From: Melioribacteraceae bacterium
Lineage (GTDB): Bacteria; Bacteroidota; Ignavibacteria; Ignavibacteriales; Melioribacteraceae
Direction of reading: 5' to 3'
Length of the DNA stretch: 64,000 bases
Assembly (NCBI GenBank): GCA_041675645.1
Contig: JBAYTN010000001.1
Coordinates: 145,061-209,060 of the forward strand
How positions within the stretch are numbered: the stretch's first letter is position 1; every line of letters starts with the position of its first letter. Below, in pieces: positions 17,924 through 30,000 of the stretch. The translations under genes were made by a program, and so were the position numbers. The notes under the pieces were generated by a model. That model was not told where the DNA came from. It made no database searches and was given only the letters and a program-made list of their open reading frames with translations.

Positions 17924-18391
17924 TTACTTTTCAAGCTTACCAAATATTTTCTTTAAGAAACCCATAAAGCGATGAAACGGATCGGCATCTTTGATGAACA
18001 TCATAGGGCAACCGCTGTGAATAACTGTTAACCCGTTCTCCTCACCTAACCGCGCCGCTTCTTTGTTATAGCTTCCGTTTCCCATTCCTTGATGAAACCA
18101 AACTCTTTTAACGCCATTTGCTATGCACTGCTTTACAACTTCATAAGCCGCAGTAGGATTTGTAGTTATTAAAATCGCGTCAATTTTTTCCGGTACCGAA
18201 GCCAAATCTTTGTAGCACTTATCTCCCTCAATCATCTCCGCATTCGGATTGATTGGATAAACAGTATAGCCGGCTTCTTTGAATTTCTTATAGATGGCAT
18301 TTCCAACTTTAGCTTTTGGAGTTCTTGAAACTCCGGCAAACGCAATTCTTTTCTGAGAAAGAAAATCGTCAACCTTTTCTTTGTACTTCAT
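17924..18391 (-). CDS. CoA-binding domain protein (YccU-like)
   Basis: 155 aa. The N-terminal part matches the CoA-binding Rossmann domain (KRIAFAGVSRTPKAKVGNAIYKKFKEAGYTVYPINP). It starts 9 nt downstream of the giant gene's stop. Confidence 0.65.
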   Translation of the reverse strand: MKYKEKVDDFLSQKRIAFAGVSRTPKAKVGNAIYKKFKEAGYTVYPINPNAEMIEGDKCYKDLASVPEKIDAILITTNPTAAYEVVKQCIANGVKRVWFHQGMGNGSYNKEAARLGEENGLTVIHSGCPMMFIKDADPFHRFMGFLKKIFGKLEK

Positions 18392-18399
18392 TTCAGCTC

Positions 18400-21300
18400 C
18401 TATAGTTTTCTTGCAACTACTATTGGCTTTTTAATTGTCTCAACGTTATTACTTCCTTCAGCAGCAATTTCTATTAATAGAATATAGATTCCCATACGAA
18501 GAGCTCTTCCGTCATCATCAAGCCCATCGAAAATAACAGTATTGTTTGCAGCTGACGGATGATTTTGTAGCAGTGTTCTTACCAATCGTCCTTGGCTATC
18601 AAAAACCTTTATCTGCACTTGTGAAAGTTTGTACGGTAAATTAAAACTGATAATTGAAAAATCTTCAAAGCCATCATTGTCCGGAGAGAACGGATTCGGA
18701 CTTATACTTACCCTCGCATCAGTTGCAAGGTTTTCCGTATAAACAGAATTCTGCTTGCCCGGTGTAGCGCCTTCGCTGGTTACACTCGTACTCCAATTAG
18801 CTCTGTCGTTTGAACTCAACGAAGGATTCAATCTTTCTAATGATTTGTTTTTCGTCTCAAGAAAATTTCTGTTATGCCATGCCGGAGAATAAACAACCGA
18901 ATCTAACGTTGTTCCGTATAAATCTTTCATTAACAATGGAGTTCCTTCGTTAGACAAACTGAGAGAAGACGAAACACGAGTAATATTTCGTTTTAACGTA
19001 GGGTATTTATTGTAGATAGATGAATCTGAAGCAAGTACCAGAAATTCTTTAGGAGGTATTATAAAAGTTGATGCCGATAACTTCACTTTATCTTTTGTGC
19101 CAACGCGAAGATCCAAGCCGCCAACTTGAATAGAATCGTTTGAGGTATTGTAGAACTCTACAAACTCAGCGTTTCCGCTTTCCGGTTCATAAAGTAATTC
19201 ATTAAGAACAAGAGAGCCGGTTTTATAAGCTTTAGGATTAGCAGAAGTATTTTTCACACCCGGCGAAGCACCTACATTTGAAATGGATACGATCCAGTTT
19301 GTGCTGTCGTTTGTAGCTTTTGTAAAAGATATTCTTTCGAGCGATGAACCGTTGCCGCCGCCCCAACTTGATTTGTAGAAGAAGCTATCAATTACAGCAC
19401 CGCGAAAATCGTAAATTATTATACCATCGGAAGTATTGCCAAGCGAACCAAACTTGGCTTGATAAAATTTCTTAGGCGGATTGTATGCATAAGCTTGTGT
19501 ATCCGGAGTAGCAATTGCGTATTCACCCGGCTGCAGAAATTCATCATTGATTGTTAATAGAGCTTTTGTGGGTGAAGGGAGAACATCGCCGACAGCCCAG
19601 TTCTTTAGATTAATTGCCTCATTTGAAACGTTTAGAAACTCAACCCATTCCGGTTCGTGAGTAAGAGGATCATACATTACCTCGGTAATTAGAACCGAGT
19701 TTTGTTTTGCGCCCGGTATAATGTCTCCGATGAAAGAATTGTTCAACGTGTCTTCATCGTTAGTAAAAGTAACTTTGCACAAAACCGTTTTCGCTTCGGA
19801 TAATTTTATTTTAGTTGATGAATAAACAACTACGGAATCATTGCTCTTTAGATTTACTCCATTCGTTTCGCCCAAATATGAATATAGATTATTATTCTTC
19901 ACGTAGTATTTTACAGTAAACTTATCCGCATCGAATGTTCCGTAATTAATCACTCTCATTCCAACGTTTATGTCTTCATTAAAAGCGGGGTAAAGCGGTT
20001 TTGGTACCAAAGCTTTAAGAGCAAGATCATATTTCTTTATCGCTATGCTATTTATTCTGCCCGGAGTACTCAACTCTAAATCTTTTGAAGAGCCCCAATT
20101 ATTTTTTTCAGAAGAAGCTATTGAGGTCATCCTTCTTTCAAGCGATTTTCCGTTTTCGCCGCCCCATTTACTATCGAAGCGAACCGAATCAATCGTCACA
20201 TCGCGAGAATCTTTAATGACAACACCATCAGCATCATTATTCAAATTCGCAAAACTCGTAATAATCAGCTTGGAAGGAATCGCATTATGATAGTTTTTAA
20301 TTGTAGAGTCTTTTGCAATAACCAAAAATGTGTTTTTCGGAAAGACCGAATCTTTAGCTTTAACAATTTGTTTTTGAGGAGTTGTTAGAATATCTGTAAT
20401 TGACCAATCTTCCAAATCGACATCGTTTGCAGATGCATTATAAATCTCCAACCATTCCGGCTCGCCGTTAATTGGATTATACATTACTTCATTTATATAA
20501 ACTGTTCCGGCTGTGTATCCTGGACGAACAGAAGCTGAGAATGCATTATTCGTAAAATCTTCATCTGAACCAAAATCGGCAACAACTTCAAAAGTATTTT
20601 TTGCAAGAATGCTTTCGATAGCATAAGAAAAATCATAAGAAAGCGAAGCGTCTTTCGAAATAATCATTGTGTTTGTTTCTTCAATTTTCTGCTTCGTTCC
20701 ATCCTTGTTAACTTTATTCAAAACAAATTTGAATGAAGCGTCTGTCTTACCAAAGTTTGTTGCTGCAACAGAAATTTTTACACGCTGACCAACAATTGGA
20801 ACGGCTGGAGTAAACAAAAGCTTTGTAACCGATACGTCAAATTTCTTTCGAGAGATTGAATTAATAAATCCCGGTGTTGCGCCAAGCAGATGAAGCGAAG
20901 TTTTCCAATTAGTTGAATCTGTTGACAATTTCACCCAATCTAATCGCTCTAAAGATTTTCCGCCCGTTCCTCCCCAGCCACTTTTATATTCAAGAGAATC
21001 GATTGTACGATCGAGTGAATCAAGTATAACAACTCTGTCCTTAGAATTATTAAGCGTTGGGAATGAGGCTATCACAGATTTTGTGATGTTTGTGAAGCGT
21101 GTATAGACTGCACTGTCTTTTGCTACAACAAAATATTCTTCCGGTTTCAAAACGACATCTTGAGCAATAACTTTACTTTTGGTAGAACCGTTTGCAATTT
21201 GGTATCCCTTTAGATTAATCTGCTTTAGACTGTTATTATAGATTTCAATCCACTCCGGCTCCCCGGTTAGAGGCGCATACATAATTTCGTTAATTACCAA

Positions 21301-24300
21301 ATCATTTCTTTCTTCATTTACAACAACGGCATTTATTGTTAGCGGAAACATATTGTTATCTAAATATTGATCTGCCGGATATTCTACTGTTGCTAAGTAC
21401 TGGTTTAATCCAATTACATACGACCCATCTTCAACATCATACTTGCTCGCTGTGTTAATCGCCAAGCTGGTTTCATTCTTTAAATAAACCAGCTCGTTTG
21501 TTTCGCCAATACCATTTTTATTTGCATCGCGGTAGAGTTTAACCGAGAAAGCCGACGCAGCATTTTTACCAATATTCTTTATTTCTATACTCATTTTAAT
21601 TTTTCTTCCAACAACCGCATATTTTTGTACCGCTGAAAGAGAACTTAAATAAATATCGTGATCTTTTGGTGAAACCGAGTTTATTCTTCCCGGCGAACTA
21701 AATTCACTGTCTATTGAAGAACCCCAATTAGTCTTTAGATTAGTGGTACTTTCAAACAAAATTCTCTCTAGCGATTTTCCATTTTCTCCGCCCCATGTTT
21801 TATCGAACAGCAATGAATCAATCATTACATCGCGGGAATCTTTAATTACAATGCCCTCTGTATCATTATTCAGATTTGCAAAAGGACTGACAATTACTTT
21901 CCCATTAATTGTCTTATGAAAATCAAGCAGAGTGCTATCCTTTACTATAACTAAATAGGTTTTGCTTGGAAAAGAGAAATCCTTTGCTTGAATTTTTGTC
22001 TTTAGTGGAGAAGTTAGTACATCAGTAATCGACCATTCTTCTAAATCTACATCATATGCAGATGCATTATAAAGTTCTATCCACTCCGGTTCTCCATTCA
22101 TTGGAGCGTACATTACTTCATTCAGCACAACTGTTCCCGATGGATATCCCGGACGAACAAAGTTAGTTACTGTGTTATTTGCTAAATCCTCATCCGCACT
22201 ATAATCAGCAATCGCTTCAAATGTCTGTTTGGATGTAATGTTATCAACAGCGTGAGTAAACTCATAAGAAACTGAAGTACCGACTGCAATAGTTAGATTG
22301 TTCGACTCTTCAACTTTTAGCTTGCTTCCGTCCTTGTCAATCTTATTCAAAACGAACTTAAATGATGCACCGTTTTTCCCAATATTAGTTGCGCTTGCAG
22401 AAATTTTTACTCTCTGACCTACAACCGGCGCTGAAGGAGTGAAAACTATATTTGATATAATAACATCTCTGTCTTTTGGTGAAACAGAATTATTTTTTCC
22501 GGGTGTGCTAAGTTCAATATCTTTTGAAAAGTCCCAATTTGATTTATCATTTGTGGCGCTTTCATAAACCTTACGTTCTAAAGACTTGCCGGCGTCGGCT
22601 CCCCATGTTTTATCATATAACAATGAATCGATTATAACATCGCGAGAATCTTTTATAACAATTCCGTCTGAGTCATTATTTAGAGGGGGTAATGGATTTA
22701 CAATAAATTTTCCGGCAATCGATTCGTGAAAGCTTTTTATTGTACTATCTTTTGCAATCACCAAATAAGTTTTGCTAGCAAACAAATTATTTGGGGCGGC
22801 AATTTTGACTTTATACGGGGATGGCAACACATCTGTTATCGACCAATCATCCAAATCAATATTATAGTCGGAGCTGTTATATAACTCAATCCACTCCGGT
22901 TCACCATTCATTGGGGCGTACATCACTTCATTCAGCACGACTGTTCCGGATGGATATCCCGGACGAACAAAGTGCGTCACTGTGTTATTGGTTAAATCTT
23001 CATCCGCACTGTAATCAACAATCGCTTCGAATGTCTGTTTGGATGTAATGTTATCAACTGCATAAACAAATTCATAAGAAACTGATGCGCCAACCGCGCT
23101 AGTTAGGATGTTAGACTCTTCAACCTTTTGCTTGCTTCCATCCTTATTTACTCTGTTCAAAACGAACTTAAATGAGGCACCGTTTTTCCCAATGTTAGTT
23201 GCGCTTGCAGAAATTTTTACTTTCTGACCTACAACCGGAGTTGAAGGAGTGAAAACAATATTTGATATAGCAACATCTCTATCCTTTGGTGAAATAGAAT
23301 TATTTTTTCCGGGTGTGCTAAGTTCAATATCTTTTGAAAAGTCCCAATTTGATTTATCGTTGGTGGCGCTTTCATAAACCTTACGTTCTAAAGATTTGCC
23401 GGGGTCGGTTCCCCATGTTTTATCATACAACAAAGAATCTATTGTTACATCGCGGGAATCTTTAATCACAATACCGTCTGCTTCATTATCTAGTGGCGGA
23501 AAAGAACTTACTATAAACTTACCGGAGATTGATTTGTGAAAATCTTTTATTGTGCTATCTTTTGCGATGACCAAATATGTTTTACTCGGAAAAGGAATGT
23601 CCTTTGCCAAGATTTTTCTTTTTTGCGGAGTGGTTAACACGTCAGTAATTGACCAGTCTTCCAAATCAACATCGAAAGATGACGCATTGTAGAGCTCAAT
23701 CCACTCCGGTTCACCGTTAAGAGGATTGTACATCACTTCGTTAAGTTTTATAGTACCGGCTAAATATCCGGGACGAACAGAAGCAGTTGTTGAATTATTC
23801 GCTTGATCTTCATCAAGTGCTAAATCAGCGATTACTTCGAAAGTTTGCTTTGAAGCAAGAACTTCCACAGCAAATGTAAAGTTGTAAGTAAGCGAATTTC
23901 CTTTTATCAAAGTAATGGTATTCGATTCTTCTACTTTCTGTTTGCTTCCATCACTATCAACTCTGTTCAGAACAAACTTAAATGAAACATCGTTTTTACC
24001 AATATTTGAAGCACTTGCAGCTATGGTTACCCTTTGCCCAACCAGCGGTGAGGAAGGCGTATATATAATTTTGGAAACAGCTACATCAAAATTTTTCTGA
24101 GAACTTGAATTCACTATTCCGGGTGTTCCTCCCAAATTGTTAAGCGAAGTTATCCAATTCGATGAATCAACAGAGGTTCTAATCCAATCAACACGTTCCA
24201 AAGACTTTCCAACACCTCCGCCCCATGAGTTTTTGTATTCGAGAGAATCTATTGTGCGGTTAAGCGAATCCAGAATTACAACTTTATCTTTAGTGTTAAG

Positions 24301-26316
24301 CAATGTTGGAAACGTTGCCACCGAAAATTTTGATGTTTTCGGATAAGTTTGATACATAGAGCTATCGCGCGTGATTACAAAATACTCTTCCGGATTTATT
24401 ACTATGGTTTTATCAACCACTTTATTTTTTGAAGATGAATTAGCTAATTGATAACCTCTCAGATTAATCTGCTTAGAACTCCTATTGTAAACTTCCACCC
24501 ATTCCGGCTCTGAAGAGTTCGGGCTATACATAATTTCATTTACAACTAAATCGCCGGGCAATTCATTTATCTGTACTGCATTGAATTTTAATACTGAAAT
24601 ATTGTTTTCAAGATATTCATCGTTTAATAAATCAACACGAACAATAAATTGATTTGAACCGGCAACGAAGCTTCCCACAGTGAAGTTTAAATTTACTATT
24701 GCCAGATTAGCAAAAACAGTTCCTTTTATTTCGTCTATCTTCTCATCATCATCGATAGTATTGTTAAGATTAATATCGCGGAACAGTTTAGCAGAATAAG
24801 CTGTTTCTGTACTCTTACCTAGATTTTCTATCGTTGCTGTTAATTGAATTGTCTTTCCAATTTCGGCGTACTTGGAGCTTGTTCCAAAACTTTTAACACT
24901 CAGATCATGACTCTTCTCCGAAACCGAATTTATTTTTGAAGGCGTAGCTTTGTACTTGCTTAAAGAGGTATTCCAGTTAGCAGCATCTATCGAAGAAGCA
25001 TTGAATGAAATTCTCTCCAAAGACTTCCCGCCGCTGTTTCCTCCCCATGTAGGCGCGTATTTTAAAGAATCAACCGTAGAGTTCACATTACTTTTAAGAA
25101 TTACATCATCACCCGTATTGCTAAAAGAAGGAAGCCCTTTTACAATTAAATTGAGCGAATGACTGTAATAGTTTGTAATAGTTGCGTCGCTGCTTATAAC
25201 AACATATTCGCTAGGCTGAAGTAGAAAATCGTTTGAGGTAATTACAGCAGTAGTGGAATTATCGGAAATTTTCCAGTTTTTTAGATTTACCGTATGATCT
25301 GTTCTATTAAAGAGTTCAATCCACTCCGGTTCATCGTTAGAGGGCGCGTACATAATTTCATTTATTACAACATCCGTATAAGAAGCCGGTTTTTCAGATA
25401 TAGTGGTTAAAACATAAGCTCTGTTATCGGAAAGCTTTTCGTCCGGAGTATAATTAACTTTTGCAATAATCAAATTCTGCCCTATCTGCTCAGCATAAAA
25501 TTTAGCATCTACAAAAATTGAATCGTTCGATGAGAGGTCTATATAACTCTGACTAAATATTCTTTCACTTATCTGCTCTACCGAATCGGCATTTTGATCA
25601 CGAAAGATTTCCACAGAATAGGCGGAAGCATCCAGGACGCCGTTATTCTTTACAATAAATTGCACATAAACCGAATCCCGCTCTACGGGATTTGCCGGTG
25701 TTAAAGAACTTAATCTGACTGTAAGGTTATGCAAGTAGCTTATAGGTGTTACGGAATTTATTTTTCCGGGAGAGCCGTTAGCAGTTGTTCCGTTACGCCA
25801 ATTTGCGGAACTGTTATCCTTACCGAGTAAGTATTTTTCATCGGAGATTCCGGAATTGTTATCTGCCGAATATGTATAAGTATCTATCACCTCGCTCGCA
25901 GCATTAAGCAAAGAAACGTCGCGGCTAGTGGTATTTGCCATACCGGAAGAACCAAAAGACGCATCTGTAATTTTTAATACTATTGCATCGGCGGGGATTA
26001 AATTTTTATATGCGCCGTTATTGTAATCATAATCACTTTCTATTATAACCGCATATTTGCCCGGTTGAAGATCCATTCCACCAATAAAAGCAACTAGATT
26101 ATCTGACGAGGAGGTGTAATACTTAATCTTGAACCCGGTAAGATTAACAGTTTCGGTAGTTGAGGTGTTATAAATTTCTATAAACTCGCCGTTGCTTTCG
26201 GATGGATTAAACATGATTTCAGAAAGCGTGAGAACCGATCCGGTTTGTCCGAATGCTTGTGGAGTGGCTAAAAACAGCAAGGTAATTGCTGCAAAGACAA
26301 ATATTATTTTTTTCAT
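18400..26316 (-). CDS. giant (2638 aa) secreted surface protein: 10 lamin-tail domains (LTD) interleaved with CARDB-like Ig domains, with a T9SS type-A C-terminal sorting domain
   Basis: Signal peptide MKKIIFVFAAITLLFLATPQAFGQ. Ten copies of the LTD signature N-E-[IV]-M-Y-x-P...EPEWIE[LI]YN. Repeated DV.IS.I.FTPS.PVVGQ.V.ISASATNIGKN modules (CARDB-like). The C-terminal ~85 aa (ISPNPFSPDNDGFEDFSIISFNL...IKVFDSQGRLVRTL...GIYILLIE) matches the T9SS type-A CTD. Confidence 0.8.
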   Translation of the reverse strand: MKKIIFVFAAITLLFLATPQAFGQTGSVLTLSEIMFNPSESNGEFIEIYNTSTTETVNLTGFKIKYYTSSSDNLVAFIGGMDLQPGKYAVIIESDYDYNNGAYKNLIPADAIVLKITDASFGSSGMANTTSRDVSLLNAASEVIDTYTYSADNNSGISDEKYLLGKDNSSANWRNGTTANGSPGKINSVTPISYLHNLTVRLSSLTPANPVERDSVYVQFIVKNNGVLDASAYSVEIFRDQNADSVEQISERIFSQSYIDLSSNDSIFVDAKFYAEQIGQNLIIAKVNYTPDEKLSDNRAYVLTTISEKPASYTDVVINEIMYAPSNDEPEWIELFNRTDHTVNLKNWKISDNSTTAVITSNDFLLQPSEYVVISSDATITNYYSHSLNLIVKGLPSFSNTGDDVILKSNVNSTVDSLKYAPTWGGNSGGKSLERISFNASSIDAANWNTSLSKYKATPSKINSVSEKSHDLSVKSFGTSSKYAEIGKTIQLTATIENLGKSTETAYSAKLFRDINLNNTIDDDEKIDEIKGTVFANLAIVNLNFTVGSFVAGSNQFIVRVDLLNDEYLENNISVLKFNAVQINELPGDLVVNEIMYSPNSSEPEWVEVYNRSSKQINLRGYQLANSSSKNKVVDKTIVINPEEYFVITRDSSMYQTYPKTSKFSVATFPTLLNTKDKVVILDSLNRTIDSLEYKNSWGGGVGKSLERVDWIRTSVDSSNWITSLNNLGGTPGIVNSSSQKNFDVAVSKIIYTPSSPLVGQRVTIAASASNIGKNDVSFKFVLNRVDSDGSKQKVEESNTITLIKGNSLTYNFTFAVEVLASKQTFEVIADLALDEDQANNSTTASVRPGYLAGTIKLNEVMYNPLNGEPEWIELYNASSFDVDLEDWSITDVLTTPQKRKILAKDIPFPSKTYLVIAKDSTIKDFHKSISGKFIVSSFPPLDNEADGIVIKDSRDVTIDSLLYDKTWGTDPGKSLERKVYESATNDKSNWDFSKDIELSTPGKNNSISPKDRDVAISNIVFTPSTPVVGQKVKISASATNIGKNGASFKFVLNRVNKDGSKQKVEESNILTSAVGASVSYEFVYAVDNITSKQTFEAIVDYSADEDLTNNTVTHFVRPGYPSGTVVLNEVMYAPMNGEPEWIELYNSSDYNIDLDDWSITDVLPSPYKVKIAAPNNLFASKTYLVIAKDSTIKSFHESIAGKFIVNPLPPLNNDSDGIVIKDSRDVIIDSLLYDKTWGADAGKSLERKVYESATNDKSNWDFSKDIELSTPGKNNSVSPKDRDVIISNIVFTPSAPVVGQRVKISASATNIGKNGASFKFVLNKIDKDGSKLKVEESNNLTIAVGTSVSYEFTHAVDNITSKQTFEAIADYSADEDLANNTVTNFVRPGYPSGTVVLNEVMYAPMNGEPEWIELYNASAYDVDLEEWSITDVLTSPLKTKIQAKDFSFPSKTYLVIVKDSTLLDFHKTINGKVIVSPFANLNNDTEGIVIKDSRDVMIDSLLFDKTWGGENGKSLERILFESTTNLKTNWGSSIDSEFSSPGRINSVSPKDHDIYLSSLSAVQKYAVVGRKIKMSIEIKNIGKNAASAFSVKLYRDANKNGIGETNELVYLKNETSLAINTASKYDVEDGSYVIGLNQYLATVEYPADQYLDNNMFPLTINAVVVNEERNDLVINEIMYAPLTGEPEWIEIYNNSLKQINLKGYQIANGSTKSKVIAQDVVLKPEEYFVVAKDSAVYTRFTNITKSVIASFPTLNNSKDRVVILDSLDRTIDSLEYKSGWGGTGGKSLERLDWVKLSTDSTNWKTSLHLLGATPGFINSISRKKFDVSVTKLLFTPAVPIVGQRVKISVAATNFGKTDASFKFVLNKVNKDGTKQKIEETNTMIISKDASLSYDFSYAIESILAKNTFEVVADFGSDEDFTNNAFSASVRPGYTAGTVYINEVMYNPINGEPEWLEIYNASANDVDLEDWSITDILTTPQKQIVKAKDSVFPKNTFLVIAKDSTIKNYHNAIPSKLIITSFANLNNDADGVVIKDSRDVTIDSVRFDSKWGGENGKSLERRMTSIASSEKNNWGSSKDLELSTPGRINSIAIKKYDLALKALVPKPLYPAFNEDINVGMRVINYGTFDADKFTVKYYVKNNNLYSYLGETNGVNLKSNDSVVVYSSTKIKLSEAKTVLCKVTFTNDEDTLNNSFIGDIIPGAKQNSVLITEVMYDPLTHEPEWVEFLNVSNEAINLKNWAVGDVLPSPTKALLTINDEFLQPGEYAIATPDTQAYAYNPPKKFYQAKFGSLGNTSDGIIIYDFRGAVIDSFFYKSSWGGGNGSSLERISFTKATNDSTNWIVSISNVGASPGVKNTSANPKAYKTGSLVLNELLYEPESGNAEFVEFYNTSNDSIQVGGLDLRVGTKDKVKLSASTFIIPPKEFLVLASDSSIYNKYPTLKRNITRVSSSLSLSNEGTPLLMKDLYGTTLDSVVYSPAWHNRNFLETKNKSLERLNPSLSSNDRANWSTSVTSEGATPGKQNSVYTENLATDARVSISPNPFSPDNDGFEDFSIISFNLPYKLSQVQIKVFDSQGRLVRTLLQNHPSAANNTVIFDGLDDDGRALRMGIYILLIEIAAEGSNNVETIKKPIVVARKL
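20450..24400. repeat. intragenic tandem repeats of ~800 bp (LTD + CARDB unit)
   Basis: The segment starting near 22241 and the one starting near 23041 (for example ggatgtaatgttatcaac...tttttccgggtgtgctaagttcaatatcttttgaaaagtcccaatttgatttatc) are about 90% identical at DNA level over roughly 750 bp. Flanking copies near 20640 and 23840 are about 70% identical. The period is about 800 bp. Confidence 0.8.
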
Positions 26317-26498
26317 GTGCGGTATGGGTTGTAGGTTATTATTCGGATTGAAATATAACTAAAGCAAATTATCTCTGCATTAAGTTTCTTGAAATGAATT
26401 TGTTAGCTTTATCATAATTATTCTCCTTAAAGACTATATCTATTGTTATGTTATCCGATAATTGATATGTTCATTTCGGAAAATTAGCCAAGGAAAAC

Positions 26499-28553
26499 AT
26501 GAAACGCGTAAAACTATTTGTGGCTTTAATGATTACCGCTCTATTATTCAGTTGCAACATTAACGAGCCTAACATGCCCCAATGGGATGTATCGTTAAAC
26601 CTACCAATCGCTAAGAAAAACTATTCATTAATCGATTTGTTAGAAAAAAGCTCCGATTTGAATTACTACAAAGATGGCAGCAATCTCCTTTACTTCTCGC
26701 AAGAAAAAAGTATAGACCAGATTGAGCTGAAAGACAAACTGAAAATCGATGCCGTAACCGAATCGGCTTCAGAAACGATCGGGTCAATATCAATTGCGAG
26801 CGATTCCGTTACCGCAGATATTGGCTTTGGATGGATAAGCACCGGTATTACTCCAGGAATGCAAGCCGTCGTTCCTCCTATTAACGATGTGCCGGTATCA
26901 ATCAACACGGATATTCTGGATCAGTTTTTAACTGTAAAATTGGAAGCCGGGACAATTGACCTATCAATCACAAACCAGTTCCCATCTCCGGTATCTTTAA
27001 CAATTAGAAACATTGTTCTAAAGAACGCTTCCGGCGGTGAAGTTGTTGCACAATACAGCGGAAGTACAACAATTCCCGCTAAAGAATCCAGAACTATAAA
27101 AGCAATTCCAATTACAAAAGGAATTTTTATAAAGAACCAACTTACGCTCGATTGTTTGGTTTCAACCAATGGAAGCAATGGAACGCCGGTTACAATTCCA
27201 CAAAATTCTTTTTCTGTAAAAGCTAAGTTTGTTAATTTGAGCGTTGTTGAAGCACAAGCAAAAATTCCGGCGCAAGATCCGGTTGTTATTGATAATACAA
27301 TTACTATTGATGAAGGTGAAGCACAACCGACTAAATTTTCCAATATCAAAATTGAAACCGGCACGTTGACGGTTAAAGTAACCAACAATCTTGATGTTGA
27401 TGCGACACTGAATTTGACGATCAGCAATTTGAAAAATCCGAGCGGACAAATATTTACCGAAATTCGTTCGATTGCAAGAAAACAAACTGTAACTCTCTTC
27501 AACAACTTGTCCTTGCTGGATTATTCAATTGTAAGCACTAGCGGTTCTCCTACAAATCAACTTTCATACAAAATTTCTTTACAAACCAAAGCCACCAGTG
27601 ATTTTAGAACAATAAAGAGTACAGATGGAATTTCCGGTTCCGTTGAAATAAGCAATCTTAAGCTAAAAGAGTTCACAGGTCAGCTTCAACCTCAACTAGT
27701 TGAAGCAGAAAGAAGTGCTATTTCTCTCGATTTGCAAGATTTGAAGGATAAGCTGCAATTCCAGCAAATTAATCTGCGCAATCCTCTCGTTCAACTCCGT
27801 TTAAAAACCAACGCGCAGTTCGAATTCAGAATTGATGGCAGAATTGAAGGTAGAAACAGCCTTGGGCAAAAGGCGATTCTTGGATTAAATAGTAAAACAC
27901 TAAATACTACTTTAATAACTCCGGCCGATTCTATCTTAACAATAAATTCCGACAGCTTAAGTCTCTTCTTTAAAAAGTTTTCCCGTTTCCCGGATTCATT
28001 AATTGTGTACGCCGGCGGCACGCTTAATCCTAACTACAAAACAGTTAGCTTGAAAAGCACAGACAAGATTACCGGAAGAAGCATCTTCGAGCTTCCGCTG
28101 GATTTTGGAATATCAAACGCACAGATAACCGACTCCGTAGCCGTGGATTTATCGAACGATGAGCGAGATCAAATTAAAGATGTAAATTCAATAGAAGCCG
28201 GATTAGTTTTAACAAACGGTTTGCCCGCATCTATTTCTTTTACGGGAAAGATGTATGACCAAAACAATAATTTCTTAACCTACTTCCCGCCAAAGTATTC
28301 CGATCAAGATACTGTACTAACTTTTAATGGAGCCGCAACTGATGCATCCGGCAATGTATCTGTTAAAAATAAACAGACAAAAACGGTGAAAGCATTAAAG
28401 GCAGAAGTTGATAAAATTGCAAAAGCGAAATACATGAGAGTTAGGCTAACTTTGAATACAAGCGGATCGGGCAATTCACCGGTGCGCTTTAAAACTACAG
28501 ACGATTTACTAATTCACGCTTTCGGTTCAACCAATTACCGCGTAAAGCCATAA
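26499..28553 (+). CDS. large lipoprotein of unknown function
   Basis: 684 aa with lipoprotein signal MKRVKLFVALMITALLFSC. I recognised no known domain. Transcribed divergently from the T9SS cargo gene and followed 7 nt later by the outer-membrane barrel gene. Confidence 0.6.
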   Translation: MKRVKLFVALMITALLFSCNINEPNMPQWDVSLNLPIAKKNYSLIDLLEKSSDLNYYKDGSNLLYFSQEKSIDQIELKDKLKIDAVTESASETIGSISIASDSVTADIGFGWISTGITPGMQAVVPPINDVPVSINTDILDQFLTVKLEAGTIDLSITNQFPSPVSLTIRNIVLKNASGGEVVAQYSGSTTIPAKESRTIKAIPITKGIFIKNQLTLDCLVSTNGSNGTPVTIPQNSFSVKAKFVNLSVVEAQAKIPAQDPVVIDNTITIDEGEAQPTKFSNIKIETGTLTVKVTNNLDVDATLNLTISNLKNPSGQIFTEIRSIARKQTVTLFNNLSLLDYSIVSTSGSPTNQLSYKISLQTKATSDFRTIKSTDGISGSVEISNLKLKEFTGQLQPQLVEAERSAISLDLQDLKDKLQFQQINLRNPLVQLRLKTNAQFEFRIDGRIEGRNSLGQKAILGLNSKTLNTTLITPADSILTINSDSLSLFFKKFSRFPDSLIVYAGGTLNPNYKTVSLKSTDKITGRSIFELPLDFGISNAQITDSVAVDLSNDERDQIKDVNSIEAGLVLTNGLPASISFTGKMYDQNNNFLTYFPPKYSDQDTVLTFNGAATDASGNVSVKNKQTKTVKALKAEVDKIAKAKYMRVRLTLNTSGSGNSPVRFKTTDDLLIHAFGSTNYRVKP

Positions 28554-28563
28554 GGAGAGAGTG

Positions 28564-30000
28564 ATGAAAAAAATAAAAGTAATTTCGACTGTTATTGTTC
28601 TCCTAATTTCTACTTTGACCTTTGCCCAAGGAAATGGTTCCATTGGTGTAACCGATGCGCGTTCAATGGGAATGGCAAAAACGTTTACAACATCATCATT
28701 CGGAATTTATGCAGTTGGAAAAAATCCGGCGAACCTTTTTCAAGATTCATCTAGGAAGGTCGAGCTGATACTGCCTCTGCCATTGCCAAATATTTCCGGC
28801 GCGGTTGGTTCAAATTTTATTTCACTCGATGAATACAACTATTACTTCGGAACAAAAGTTACCAATTCCGACGGCTCCACCTCCGGCAGATTACTGACAG
28901 AACAAGACAAAACTAAGCTCAAAGATTTATTTGCTGACGGCGGAACAGTTTTCTCCGATATTCATGTTCAGCTTGTAAGTATTTCAGTTCAGCCATCCAA
29001 AGCTTTCGGTGCAATCGCTTTTTCTATTACAGATCGAATTAGTGGATTAATGACTTTTCCGAAAAGCTTGATTGATCTTGGCGTTGAAGGAAATTTACCA
29101 AACAAAGTTTACAATTTTAACGACACGCAATTCAAAGCTTCTTGGCTGCGCAAATATTCCTTTTCGTATGCCCGCGATTTCAAAATCATTCCAAAACTGT
29201 TCAAGAGTTTCAAAGTTGGTGCTTCAATAAACTTTGTAAGCGGATTTTTCTACGCCGGGCTTGATCACATTAACACGGAATTAAAAACCGGCGAAGCAAA
29301 TACAATAACCGGTAAAGGAGATTTTTTAGCTTACTCGGCTTTCTCGCCGGACTTTAAAGTAAAATACAATTTTGTGAAGGATGAAAAGAAAGAAGACTTT
29401 TCCGGAACACCATTTCCAACTCCCGCCGGCAGCGGCGTTGGTTTTGATTTTGGAATCAGCACACTTTTGAGCGATAATTTCTCTGTTGGATTTTCCATTA
29501 CAGATATCGGCAAAATAAAGTGGGATAAAGATGTAGCACAGTATTCATCCAACGCCGCAATTTATTTGGATGATCTAAGTGATAAAGCTCAGCGAGATAC
29601 TCTTGTAAACCGGCTTACCGGAAAAGAGAGCGGTAAGTTTATCAACTCAATCACAACTCAAATGGCGACGGCATTACACATCGGCGCATCGCTGAAATTA
29701 GAAAGCGTACCGGGCACAATGTTGCTTGCTTTGGATTATCACCAAGGAATGAATGACGAACCGGGAAACAGCAAGAAGCCACGCATTGCGTTAGGTGTTG
29801 ATTGGTACAATCTCGGAGTTTTTGCGCTTCGTACCGGTTGGGCTTTTGGCGGGTTTGATAAATTCAACTGGGGATTGGGTTTAGGAATTGATTTTGGAGT
29901 GATAGCTCTAAACTTTGGTTCGCCAGATTTTCAAAATGTGGTTTCTTCCAGCAAAGCAAAAAGAGTTACATTCGCTTTTGATTCTGTCTGGAGATTTTAA
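28564..30000 (+). CDS. putative outer-membrane beta-barrel protein (PorV/FadL-like?)
   Basis: ATG at 28564, preceded by aggaga 5 nt upstream. Signal peptide MKKIKVISTVIVLLISTLTFAQG. The mature N-terminus GSIGVTDARSMGMAKTFTTSS resembles the conserved N-terminus of the PorV/PorQ/FadL-like barrel family. A C-terminal aromatic residue (…SVWRF) is typical of outer-membrane proteins. Confidence 0.4.
   Translation: MKKIKVISTVIVLLISTLTFAQGNGSIGVTDARSMGMAKTFTTSSFGIYAVGKNPANLFQDSSRKVELILPLPLPNISGAVGSNFISLDEYNYYFGTKVTNSDGSTSGRLLTEQDKTKLKDLFADGGTVFSDIHVQLVSISVQPSKAFGAIAFSITDRISGLMTFPKSLIDLGVEGNLPNKVYNFNDTQFKASWLRKYSFSYARDFKIIPKLFKSFKVGASINFVSGFFYAGLDHINTELKTGEANTITGKGDFLAYSAFSPDFKVKYNFVKDEKKEDFSGTPFPTPAGSGVGFDFGISTLLSDNFSVGFSITDIGKIKWDKDVAQYSSNAAIYLDDLSDKAQRDTLVNRLTGKESGKFINSITTQMATALHIGASLKLESVPGTMLLALDYHQGMNDEPGNSKKPRIALGVDWYNLGVFALRTGWAFGGFDKFNWGLGLGIDFGVIALNFGSPDFQNVVSSSKAKRVTFAFDSVWRF

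What the first reader, a model, noticed from the sequence alone, without database searches (positions are those of the whole stretch)
20450..24400. Near-identical ~800-bp tandem repeats inside the giant gene (assembly risk and likely copy-number variation)
The units starting near 22241 and near 23041 share about 90% nucleotide identity over roughly 750 bp. These are the LTD4-CARDB and LTD5-CARDB units. The flanking units are about 70% identical. Repeats this long and this similar recombine readily. They make the gene a probable phase-variable or length-variable locus. They are also a classic place for short-read assemblies to mis-set copy number.
Basis: seen in the sequence. Interest (0 to 1): 0.5.

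Follow-up and report, generated by a model that had tools for sequence, protein, structure and literature searches.

The report
Tandem domain repeats, giant surface protein
The flagged stretch is the middle of a 2,638-residue secreted protein of an Ignavibacteriota bacterium built from ten lamin-tail/Ig-like modules; two adjacent 810-bp modules are 83-86% (not about 90%) identical because an old duplication was partly homogenised by gene conversion, and module number changes between related species, which is ordinary evolution for such proteins and neither a fast switch nor an assembly error in this window.

Summary
The period is 810 nt (270 codons), not 800. The best pair is 22019-22773 versus 22829-23583: 85.8% identity over 755 nt, with a longest exact run of 63 nt. 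Other unit pairs are 55-65% identical.

The repeats lie in one unbroken minus-strand ORF (18400-26316). It encodes a signal peptide, 10 LTD domains, 8 CARDB-like Ig domains and a weak T9SS-type C-terminal domain.

Two independently assembled relatives (83-85% nt identity) have the same ten-module layout with one-to-one orthologues of both units. The duplication is therefore old, and the count in this window is corroborated. Both copies are under purifying selection (dN/dS about 0.14).

A central tract of about 220 nt shows post-speciation gene conversion. The sister MAG carries one hybrid U4/U5 unit (exactly 810 nt fewer). Two relatives' assemblies break inside this gene: one across the U4/U5 repeats, the sister MAG about 800 nt upstream at the start of LTD3.

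Across the family, lengths step by one module (about 5 to 12 LTDs). This is evolutionary copy-number change by unequal recombination. Nothing indicates phase variation. It is a new member of a known kind and of modest interest.

The parts
18400..26316 (-). Giant ORF of 2638 aa. It encodes a signal peptide, 10 LTD domains, 8 CARDB-like Ig domains and a C-terminal Ig-like sorting-type domain.
   Evidence: It is the only ORF of 80 aa or more in the interval, apart from one 81-aa ORF on the other strand.
26248..26316 (-). Predicted Sec signal peptide, aa 1-23 (MKKIIFVFAAITLLFLATPQAFG|QT).
   Evidence: Read from the translation. This is an inference from sequence features; no signal-peptide predictor was run.
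25366..26226 (-). U1 (LTD1 + Ig1). It is the best conserved unit and the candidate distal functional tip.
   Evidence: dN/dS 0.02; 87-90% aa identity to orthologues.
24544..25365 (-). U2 (LTD2 + CARDB type B).
23746..24543 (-). U3 (LTD type b + CARDB type A).
22936..23745 (-). U4 (LTD type a + CARDB type A), 810 nt. It is one member of the high-identity pair.
   Evidence: Its orthologues are in L001 and L008.
22126..22935 (-). U5 (LTD type a + CARDB type A), 810 nt. It is the other member of the high-identity pair.
   Evidence: Its orthologues are in L001 and L008.
21295..22125 (-). U6 (LTD type a + CARDB type B).
20497..21294 (-). U7 (LTD type b + CARDB type A).
19690..20496 (-). U8 (LTD type a + Ig8).
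18730..19689 (-). U9 and U10 (two LTD domains with no intervening Ig domain).
18403..18729 (-). C-terminal domain of about 109 aa, FlgD_ig/CHU_C/Por_Secre_tail-like. It is a probable T9SS sorting domain.
   Evidence: FlgD_ig scores 29.0 bits against a cut-off of 27, CHU_C 22.8 against 27, and TIGR04183 18.4 against 23.
22019..22773 (.). Copy A of the best offset-810 match (755 nt, 85.8% identical to 22829-23583).
22829..23583 (.). Copy B of the best offset-810 match.
22378..22594 (-). Gene-conversion tract in U5 (unit nt 342-558). It contains the 63-nt exact run at 22486-22548.
23188..23404 (-). Gene-conversion tract in U4 (unit nt 342-558). It contains the 63-nt exact run at 23296-23358.
22344..22470 (-). 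U5 side of the interval (unit nt 466-592; the U4 equivalent is 23154-23280) in which the sister MAG's hybrid unit switches from U4 state to U5 state.

Best explanation
The region is the central stalk of a giant, secreted, all-beta modular surface protein. The protein is conserved in the same genomic neighbourhood in Ignavibacteriota (the Melioribacteraceae/Stygiobacter group).

The array has a higher-order pattern. A two-unit super-repeat [CARDB-B, LTD-b, CARDB-A, LTD-a] occurs twice. Two extra [CARDB-A, LTD-a] modules of 810 nt (270 codons) were added inside the first copy by tandem duplication. These extra modules give U4 and U5.

That duplication predates the common ancestor of the window organism and three relatives. 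Both copies have since been kept under purifying selection. Their high similarity is concentrated in a central tract of about 220 nt that has been homogenised by gene conversion since the lineages split.

Unequal homologous recombination or slippage between in-register units adds or removes whole modules without breaking the frame. As a result, orthologues differ in module number: 8, 9 and 10 in close relatives, and about 5 to 12 in the family.

Shown here: the architecture, the orthology, the selection regime, the conversion mosaic, the hybrid unit in the sister MAG, and the quantised protein lengths. Inferred: the recombination mechanism, cell-surface anchoring through a T9SS-type C-terminal domain, and the idea that module number sets how far the conserved N-terminal unit projects from the cell.
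For: Architecture:
- 10 LTD stretches (493 bits), CARDB and a C-terminal Ig-like domain.
- The AF2 model of U4 is two beta-sandwiches (mean pLDDT 78). Its second domain matches the CARDB structure 3idu with TM 0.74-0.81.

Sub-families:
- LTD{4,5,6,8} share 57-80% aa identity and LTD{3,7} 61%. CARDB{3,4,5,7} share 53-87% and CARDB{2,6} 36%.
- Repeat spacings are 1629, 810 and 810 nt, with one pair at 3249 nt.

Age and orthology:
- P0001/L001 and L008 have genes of identical length (7917 nt). They are 83.1% and 84.6% identical to the window gene in nt.
- Their U4 and U5 each match the window's U4 and U5 best: for P0001, 86% and 88% aa against 77% and 79% for the cross comparisons.
- In the four-sequence test, 46 informative sites support orthology.

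Gene conversion:
- 17 'concerted' sites are clustered; 14 of the 15 informative sites between unit nt 342 and 558 are concerted. The runs test gives p of about 1e-5.
- In that tract, synonymous divergence between the paralogues (dS 0.19) is lower than between the orthologues (0.42 and 0.60). In the first 330 nt it is saturated (dS 2.4).

Selection:
- dN/dS is 0.07-0.21 for all unit comparisons.
- pN is far below pS in every 300-nt window along the gene.

Copy-number change:
- P0004 has one unit in place of U4 and U5, and the Stygiobacter protein P0003 has none, in conserved synteny.
- P0014 and P0015 have the same length as the window protein but expanded a different unit type.
- The 120 best homologues fall into length classes spaced about 270 aa apart. 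Further classes lie near 1284 and 1012 aa.
- The sister MAG bin.740 is collinear with the window except for exactly 810 nt. At 39 fixed U4/U5 differences, its single unit carries the U4 state at nt 6-465 (26 of 30) and the U5 state at nt 593-747 (8 of 9).
Against: - No reads or strain-level relatives were available. The bin.740 hybrid unit could therefore be a collapsed MEGAHIT assembly rather than a real deletion. That MAG's gene is split over two contigs.
- The conversion inference rests on four sequences and 17 sites.
- The T9SS sorting-domain assignment is below the curated cut-off for TIGR04183 and CHU_C.
- No function is known for bacterial LTD domains (PMC6085458).
- Synonymous divergence is mosaic along the whole gene. 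Inter-lineage recombination therefore contributes to some patterns and complicates simple dating.
Confidence: 0.8

Rival explanations
1. This is a fast length-variable contingency locus. The long, similar repeats would recombine often enough for unit number to vary within populations and act as an adaptive switch, in the manner of Periscope proteins.
For: - The U4/U5 aa identity of 83% just passes the 80% repeat criterion used for Periscope proteins.
- The sister MAG has a U4/U5 hybrid and one unit fewer.
- Contigs of two relatives end inside this gene: one across the U4/U5 repeats (clean1192), the other about 800 nt upstream at the start of LTD3 (bin.740). This could reflect population heterogeneity.
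- Gene conversion shows that recombination between the units does occur.
Against: - Only one pair of units is similar. All other pairs share 26-59% aa identity.
- The copies differ at 14-18% of nt, and the longest exact run is 63 nt.
- The count of ten, with one-to-one orthologues, is retained in three genomes separated by dS of about 0.5-0.9.
- An identical 2098-aa Stygiobacter orthologue was assembled on 23 contigs from several samples. That look-up finds only exact copies, so this point is weak.
- There are no SSRs and no invertible-promoter signals.
- The median best intra-protein unit identity across 120 family members is only 43%.
Confidence: 0.12
2. This is an assembly artefact in the window. 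U4 and U5 would be a falsely duplicated or chimeric unit, or further near-identical copies would have been collapsed.
For: - Repeats of about 800 nt are longer than short reads.
- Relatives' assemblies break inside this gene. The clean1192 contigs end in CARDB3 and CARDB5 on either side of U4/U5, and the two bin.740 contigs nearly abut at the start of LTD3.
Against: - U4 and U5 differ at 142 of 810 positions. The longest exact run of 63 nt is easily spanned by ordinary reads.
- Two independent assemblies from other projects have the same 7917-nt gene. Each of their units is orthologous to its counterpart here (46 orthology-supporting sites).
- The ORF is unbroken and G+C content is uniform.
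Confidence: 0.04
3. There has been no recombination at all. The similarity of U4 and U5 would simply reflect a more recent duplication together with protein-level constraint.
For: Purifying selection is strong throughout the gene (dN/dS 0.07-0.21).
Against: - Synonymous divergence between U4 and U5 varies more than tenfold along the unit: 2.4, 0.19 and 0.66 in the three segments.
- In the central tract the paralogues are closer at synonymous sites than the orthologues are.
- The concerted-pattern sites are tightly clustered (p of about 1e-5).
Confidence: 0.04

Closest known systems
Periscope proteins and variable-length repeat surface proteins (SasG/Aap, Rib, Sgo_0707 SHIRT, Esp, CdrA; PMC8201768)
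   Same: - It is a secreted, probably surface-anchored protein made of tandem folded beta-sandwich modules.
- Whole modules are gained and lost in frame.
- Module number differs among homologues.
- The most conserved unit sits at the end farthest from the presumed anchor.
   Different: - Periscope repeats are many and 80-100% identical, and their number varies between closely related strains.
- Here only one pair reaches 83% aa identity; the rest share 26-59%.
- Variation is seen between species-level lineages only.
- The repeating unit is a two-domain LTD+CARDB pair.
- The organism is an environmental Ignavibacteriota bacterium, and the anchor is T9SS-like rather than LPXTG.
Bacterial multi-LTD proteins (lamin tail domain, PF00932; Mans et al. 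2004, as cited in PMC6085458)
   Same: - It contains LTD domains in multiple tandem copies in a secreted bacterial protein.
- The role of these domains is unknown, as it is for other bacterial LTD proteins.
   Different: - Characterised bacterial LTD proteins such as ExeM carry one LTD fused to a nuclease. There the LTD is dispensable for extracellular DNA degradation in vivo but needed for full activity in vitro.
- This protein has no detected enzymatic domain.
- Its LTD domains alternate strictly with CARDB-like Ig domains.
Giant repetitive T9SS cargo proteins of Bacteroidota (for example SprB of Flavobacterium johnsoniae; from my own knowledge, not tested here)
   Same: - It is very large and has a signal peptide.
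- It is built from repeated beta-rich modules.
- It has a C-terminal Ig-like domain resembling T9SS sorting domains.
- Neighbouring genes in relatives carry Por_Secre_tail domains.
   Different: - The domain families are different (LTD/CARDB).
- The C-terminal domain match is below the curated cut-offs of the two T9SS models, TIGR04183 and CHU_C.
- Neither motility nor adhesion has been shown.
Concerted evolution and gene conversion in tandem-repeat surface genes (for example the alpha C protein of group B streptococci; from my own knowledge)
   Same: - Recombination between repeats within the gene homogenises sequence.
- It can also delete whole repeats, producing hybrid junction units.
   Different: - Alpha C repeats are identical at the nucleotide level, and deletions arise within infections.
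- Here the repeats are 14-18% diverged, and the events are visible only between lineages.

Membership tests
LTD (lamin tail domain, Pfam PF00932) | The whole protein scores above the Pfam gathering score. | tested here: met
   493.1 bits against a cut-off of 34.3, with 10 matched stretches. The conserved NE[IV]MY...EPEW[IV]E...SLER...NW...TPG motifs recur ten times.
CARDB (Pfam PF07705) | A Pfam match above the gathering score, and a CARDB-type beta-sandwich fold. | tested here: met
   50.7 bits against a cut-off of 22.7 for aa 1561-1634, in unit U6. The second domain of the U4 model matches the CARDB structure 3idu with TMt 0.74-0.81 and rmsd 2.3 A. The other inter-LTD domains are assigned by paralogy.
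T9SS type A sorting domain (TIGR04183 / PF18962 Por_Secre_tail) | The C-terminal domain of about 70-100 aa scores above the curated cut-off. | tested here: inconclusive
   TIGR04183 scores 18.4 bits against a cut-off of 23, and CHU_C 22.8 against 27. The related FlgD_ig model scores 29.0 against 27. Neighbouring genes in relatives carry PF18962.
T9SS cargo | The genome encodes the T9SS machinery, and secretion depends on it. | not tested
   The only hint is a DUF5723 protein with a faint PorV/PorQ-family hit at 28561-30000. An experiment is needed.
Periscope proteins (PMC8201768) | [quoted passage not shown] | tested here: inconclusive
   Only U4/U5 (270 aa, 83% identity) pass. All other unit pairs share 26-59%. 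The criterion was read.
Periscope proteins (PMC8201768) | Repeat number varies among closely related proteins or strains (at least 90% identity). | not testable with these tools
   No relative above about 90% nt identity was found. The 89%-identical sister MAG has 9 units against 10 here, but assembly collapse cannot be excluded.
Phase-variable contingency locus | A frame-shifting simple-sequence tract in the gene or promoter, or an invertible promoter. | tested here: not met
   There is no homopolymer (A/T of 8 or more, G/C of 6 or more) and no SSR in 18301-26600. There are no inverted repeats in 26000-26900. TRF finds nothing. The repeat unit is a multiple of three.

The most novel reading that the evidence does not exclude
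The LTD-CARDB giants would form an Ignavibacteriota-wide family of variable-length surface fibrils, a Periscope-like system outside host-associated bacteria. In this reading, module gain, loss and gene conversion tune how far a conserved N-terminal LTD tip projects from the cell. The window's clade would be caught in an active phase of that process: a recent pair of units, a conversion tract, and a recombinant deletion in the sister lineage.
Probability: 0.3. Interest if true: 0.45.

Novelty: new member of a known kind. Interest (0 to 1): 0.3.

Why it matters
For annotation, the ten-module gene model in this window can be trusted. The locus should not be labelled phase-variable.

For MAG users, this gene family is a place where short-read assemblies of relatives fragment. 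One MAG may also have lost a unit there. Module counts taken from MAGs should therefore be checked against reads.

Biologically, the locus is a clean, dated example of three processes in an uncharacterised and widespread Ignavibacteriota surface-protein family: duplication of a two-domain module, local gene conversion, and unequal-crossover loss. It also points to the conserved N-terminal unit as the part to test for ligand binding.

Tried and rejected
- Tandem Repeats Finder found nothing, because its period cap is 500.
- The JGI metagenome scan found no relative above 60% identity, so it gave no strain-level comparison.
- A second protein search with the U3-U6 segment returned only hits of 31-43% identity and did not even list P0001. 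It says nothing about close strains, and only added the length classes near 1284 and 1012 aa.
- A profile search of the units against PDB sequences gave no hit.
- The fold search gave only generic Ig/Fn3/CARDB matches and no functional clue.
- Positive selection was rejected, because pN is far below pS in every window.
- I looked for a donor unit for the fast-diverging N-terminal half of LTD4 and found none above about 78% identity.
- Promoter and terminator scans inside the gene were at shuffle level.
- G+C content is uniform, which gives no sign of foreign origin.
- Literature searches found no study of this family.
Full report
**Observation.**
The flagged interval lies inside one minus-strand ORF, 18400..26316, of 2638 codons with no internal stop. 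All repeat junctions are therefore in frame.

Direct-repeat search finds families with start-to-start spacings of 810 nt. Neighbouring spacings are 798-831 nt, and 1629 nt corresponds to two units. Tandem Repeats Finder is blind to this repeat because its period cap is 500.

At 810 nt it reaches 75-98% in 60-nt windows. The main measurements are:
- The best segment is 22019-22773 versus 22829-23583: 755 nt at 85.8% identity.
- A 571-nt core is 88.6% identical, and a 301-nt core 91.7%.
- The longest exact shared run is 63 nt, followed by runs of 32, 29, 27 and 25 nt.
- Whole units U4 (22936-23745) and U5 (22126-22935) align without gaps at 82.5% nt and 83% aa identity.
- All other unit pairs are 55-65% identical in nt and 26-59% in aa.

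The repeat is therefore real and far beyond chance. However, 'about 90% over 750 bp' and 'near-identical' overstate it, and the period is 810 nt (270 codons).

**What the gene is.**
Pfam finds ten LTD stretches (493 bits), a CARDB domain and a C-terminal FlgD_ig/CHU_C-like domain. NCBIfam gives a sub-threshold match to the T9SS type A sorting domain. The N-terminus looks like a Sec signal peptide.

LTD domains start at aa 31, 318, 592, 858, 1128, 1398, 1675, 1941, 2210 and 2371. The first eight are each followed by an Ig-like domain of about 120 aa.

An AlphaFold model of U4, built from an alignment of the window's ten units, has mean pLDDT 78 and consists of two beta-sandwiches. The second matches the solved CARDB domain 3idu with TM 0.74-0.81.

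Domain-level comparison shows sub-families: LTD{4,5,6,8}, LTD{3,7}, CARDB{3,4,5,7} and CARDB{2,6}. The array therefore reads as a two-unit super-repeat [CARDB-B, LTD-b, CARDB-A, LTD-a] present twice, with two extra [CARDB-A, LTD-a] modules inserted in the first copy. This explains the spacings of 1629, 810 and 810 nt and the pair 3249 nt apart.

**Relatives.**
Homologues are annotated as Ignavibacteriota (Stygiobacter, Melioribacter, Ignavibacterium, Rosettibacter).

The Stygiobacter orthologue P0003 sits in the same neighbourhood as the window gene. Upstream lie a 684-aa ORF of unknown function, DUF5723, DUF6159 and Band_7. Downstream lie CoA_binding and PAP2, then amylase, M24 peptidase and tricorn protease.

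Unit-by-unit mapping gives the following.
- **P0001/L001 and L008:** two independent MAG assemblies, 83.1% and 84.6% identical to the window gene in nt. They have genes of identical length (7917 nt) with all ten units in one-to-one correspondence. In P0001 this includes U4 (86% aa to the window's U4, 77% to its U5) and U5 (88% against 79%).
- **P0004:** 2368 aa, with one unit where the window has U4 and U5.
- **P0003:** 2098 aa, with no unit at that position.
- **P0014 and P0015:** 2640 aa. They reach the same length by expanding a different unit type.

The 120 best homologues fall into length classes about 270 aa apart. The counts are 55-58 proteins with 6 LTDs, 17 with 7, 25 with 8, 13 with 9, 5 with 10, 1 with 11 and 1 with 12. 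Further classes lie near 1284 and 1012 aa.

Across those 120 proteins, the median best intra-protein unit identity is only 43%. Six proteins reach 70% or more. The window's 83% pair is therefore unusual for the family.

**History of U4 and U5.**
I compared four sequences: U4 and U5 of the window, and U4 and U5 of L001. Of the informative sites, 46 support orthology, 17 support 'concerted' grouping by genome, and 2 support the third topology.

The concerted sites are clustered: 14 of the 15 informative sites between unit nt 342 and 558 are concerted. The permutation runs test gives p of about 1e-5.

Synonymous divergence between the window's U4 and U5 varies strongly along the unit:
- nt 1-330: dS 2.4, which is saturated.
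- nt 331-570: dS 0.19.
- nt 571-810: dS 0.66.

In the central tract the paralogues are closer at synonymous sites than the orthologues are (0.42 and 0.60).

This is the signature of an old duplication followed by a local gene-conversion tract after the lineages split. The tract contains the 63-nt exact run.

dN/dS is 0.07-0.21 in every comparison, and pN is far below pS in every 300-nt window of the gene. Both copies are thus maintained by purifying selection, and there is no sign of diversifying selection.

**Copy-number change and assembly behaviour in close relatives.**
MAG bin.740 is the window's sister. It is 89% identical in nt, against about 85% for L001 and L008, which are 92% identical to each other.

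Its gene is split over two contigs that nearly abut at the start of LTD3 (gene nt 1739 and 1798). The downstream contig is collinear with the window except that exactly 810 nt are missing.

At the 39 positions where U4 and U5 differ consistently in the three ten-unit genomes, its single unit carries the U4 state at nt 6-465 (26 of 30) and the U5 state at nt 593-747 (8 of 9). It is therefore a U4/U5 recombinant. Because both sub-clades contain ten-unit genes with orthologous U4 and U5, the nine-unit state is derived.

The nine-unit state is either a real unequal-crossover deletion or a collapsed de Bruijn assembly. I cannot tell which without reads.

In MAG clean1192, one contig ends in CARDB3 and another starts in CARDB5. 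That assembly broke exactly across the U4/U5 repeats.

The locus is thus troublesome for short-read assembly in relatives. The window's own count, however, is corroborated by two independent assemblies.

**Phase variation.**
There are no homopolymer or simple-sequence tracts in 18301-26600. There are no inverted repeats in 26000-26900, which includes the 182-nt upstream intergenic region. Promoter-like and terminator-like sites are at shuffle level, and G+C content is uniform.

Unit gain or loss preserves the reading frame. At most it changes protein length and cannot switch expression on or off.

**Mechanism.**
- *Shown:* the modular architecture, the orthology, the conversion mosaic, the hybrid unit, and the quantised lengths.
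- *Inferred:* RecA-type unequal recombination or replication slippage between in-register 810-nt units adds or deletes one LTD+Ig pair.
- *Inferred:* the protein is exported by Sec and then displayed through a T9SS-type C-terminal domain.
- *Inferred:* the N-terminal unit U1 is the functional tip. It is the best conserved unit, with dN/dS 0.02 and 87-90% aa identity even where synonymous sites are saturated. The central modules would act as a spacer.

The role of bacterial LTD domains is unknown. In the nuclease ExeM, the LTD is dispensable for extracellular DNA degradation in vivo but needed for full activity in vitro. A role in targeting proteins to the envelope has been suggested (PMC6085458). 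A DNA-binding role has been proposed by analogy (PMC4486849).

**Comparison with known systems.**
The closest concept is the Periscope or variable-length surface protein (PMC8201768). [quoted passage not shown]

Here a single pair of units just passes the identity criterion. Strain-level variation could not be tested.

The locus works like that class on an evolutionary time scale, but I do not file it as a member. It is a new member of the known kind 'modular repeat surface protein evolving by module duplication, conversion and loss'.

**Limits.**
- No read data were available, and no relative is closer than about 89% nt identity.
- The conversion test uses four sequences.
- Synonymous divergence is mosaic along the gene. 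The 5' 1.7 kb has a different history from the rest: it is 76-77% identical to L001 and L008, against about 85% for the U6-to-stop part of the gene. The upstream neighbour also differs in L001 and L002. Inter-lineage recombination is therefore also at work.

Noticed in passing
window 24578-26316 (the 5' 1739 nt of the gene) and the upstream region 26317-30000: The 5' 1.7 kb of the gene is only 76-77% identical to L001 and L008, against about 85% for the U6-to-stop part of the gene. It is 89.6% identical to bin.740, and dS for U1 and U2 is saturated (2.3-2.9). The upstream neighbour also differs. The window and Stygiobacter have a divergent 684-aa ORF plus DUF5723, whereas L001 and L002 have a co-oriented Por_Secre_tail protein. 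This suggests an inter-lineage recombination breakpoint in or near the 5' part of the gene.
   Followed up: partly
window 23476-23685 (LTD4, unit nt 60-270): The N-terminal half of LTD4 diverges fast in every genome. The window's copy is about 70% identical to that of L001, and the L001 and L008 copies are 71-79% identical although those genes are 92% identical overall. The same part of LTD5 is 89-96% conserved. Both synonymous and non-synonymous changes are elevated, and no donor unit was found. This asymmetric evolution of the two duplicates is unexplained.
   Followed up: partly
window 25366-26226 (U1): The N-terminal LTD+Ig unit is the most conserved module of the protein. Its dN/dS is 0.02, and it is 87-90% identical in aa to orthologues whose synonymous sites are saturated. 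It is a candidate ligand-binding tip.
   Followed up: partly
window 26499-30000 (+ strand): Two genes lie divergently upstream of the giant gene. One is a 684-aa ORF with no Pfam or NCBIfam match. The other is a 479-aa DUF5723 protein with a faint PorV/PorQ-family hit. Both are conserved next to the giant gene in Stygiobacter. They may be an outer-membrane partner or T9SS-related.
   Followed up: no
protein P0022 (JGI, 2354 aa), units 3 and 5: In this distant family member, two non-adjacent LTD-Ig units are 100% identical in aa. This is either a very recent duplication of a two-unit block or an assembly artefact. P0026 has an adjacent pair of units at 81% identity.
   Followed up: no
loci L009 and L027 (MAG bin.740, JBHEKZ01): The two contigs carrying the gene end 58 nt apart in window-gene coordinates (gene nt 1739 and 1798), at the start of LTD3. 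The cause of the assembly break at that point was not determined.
   Followed up: no
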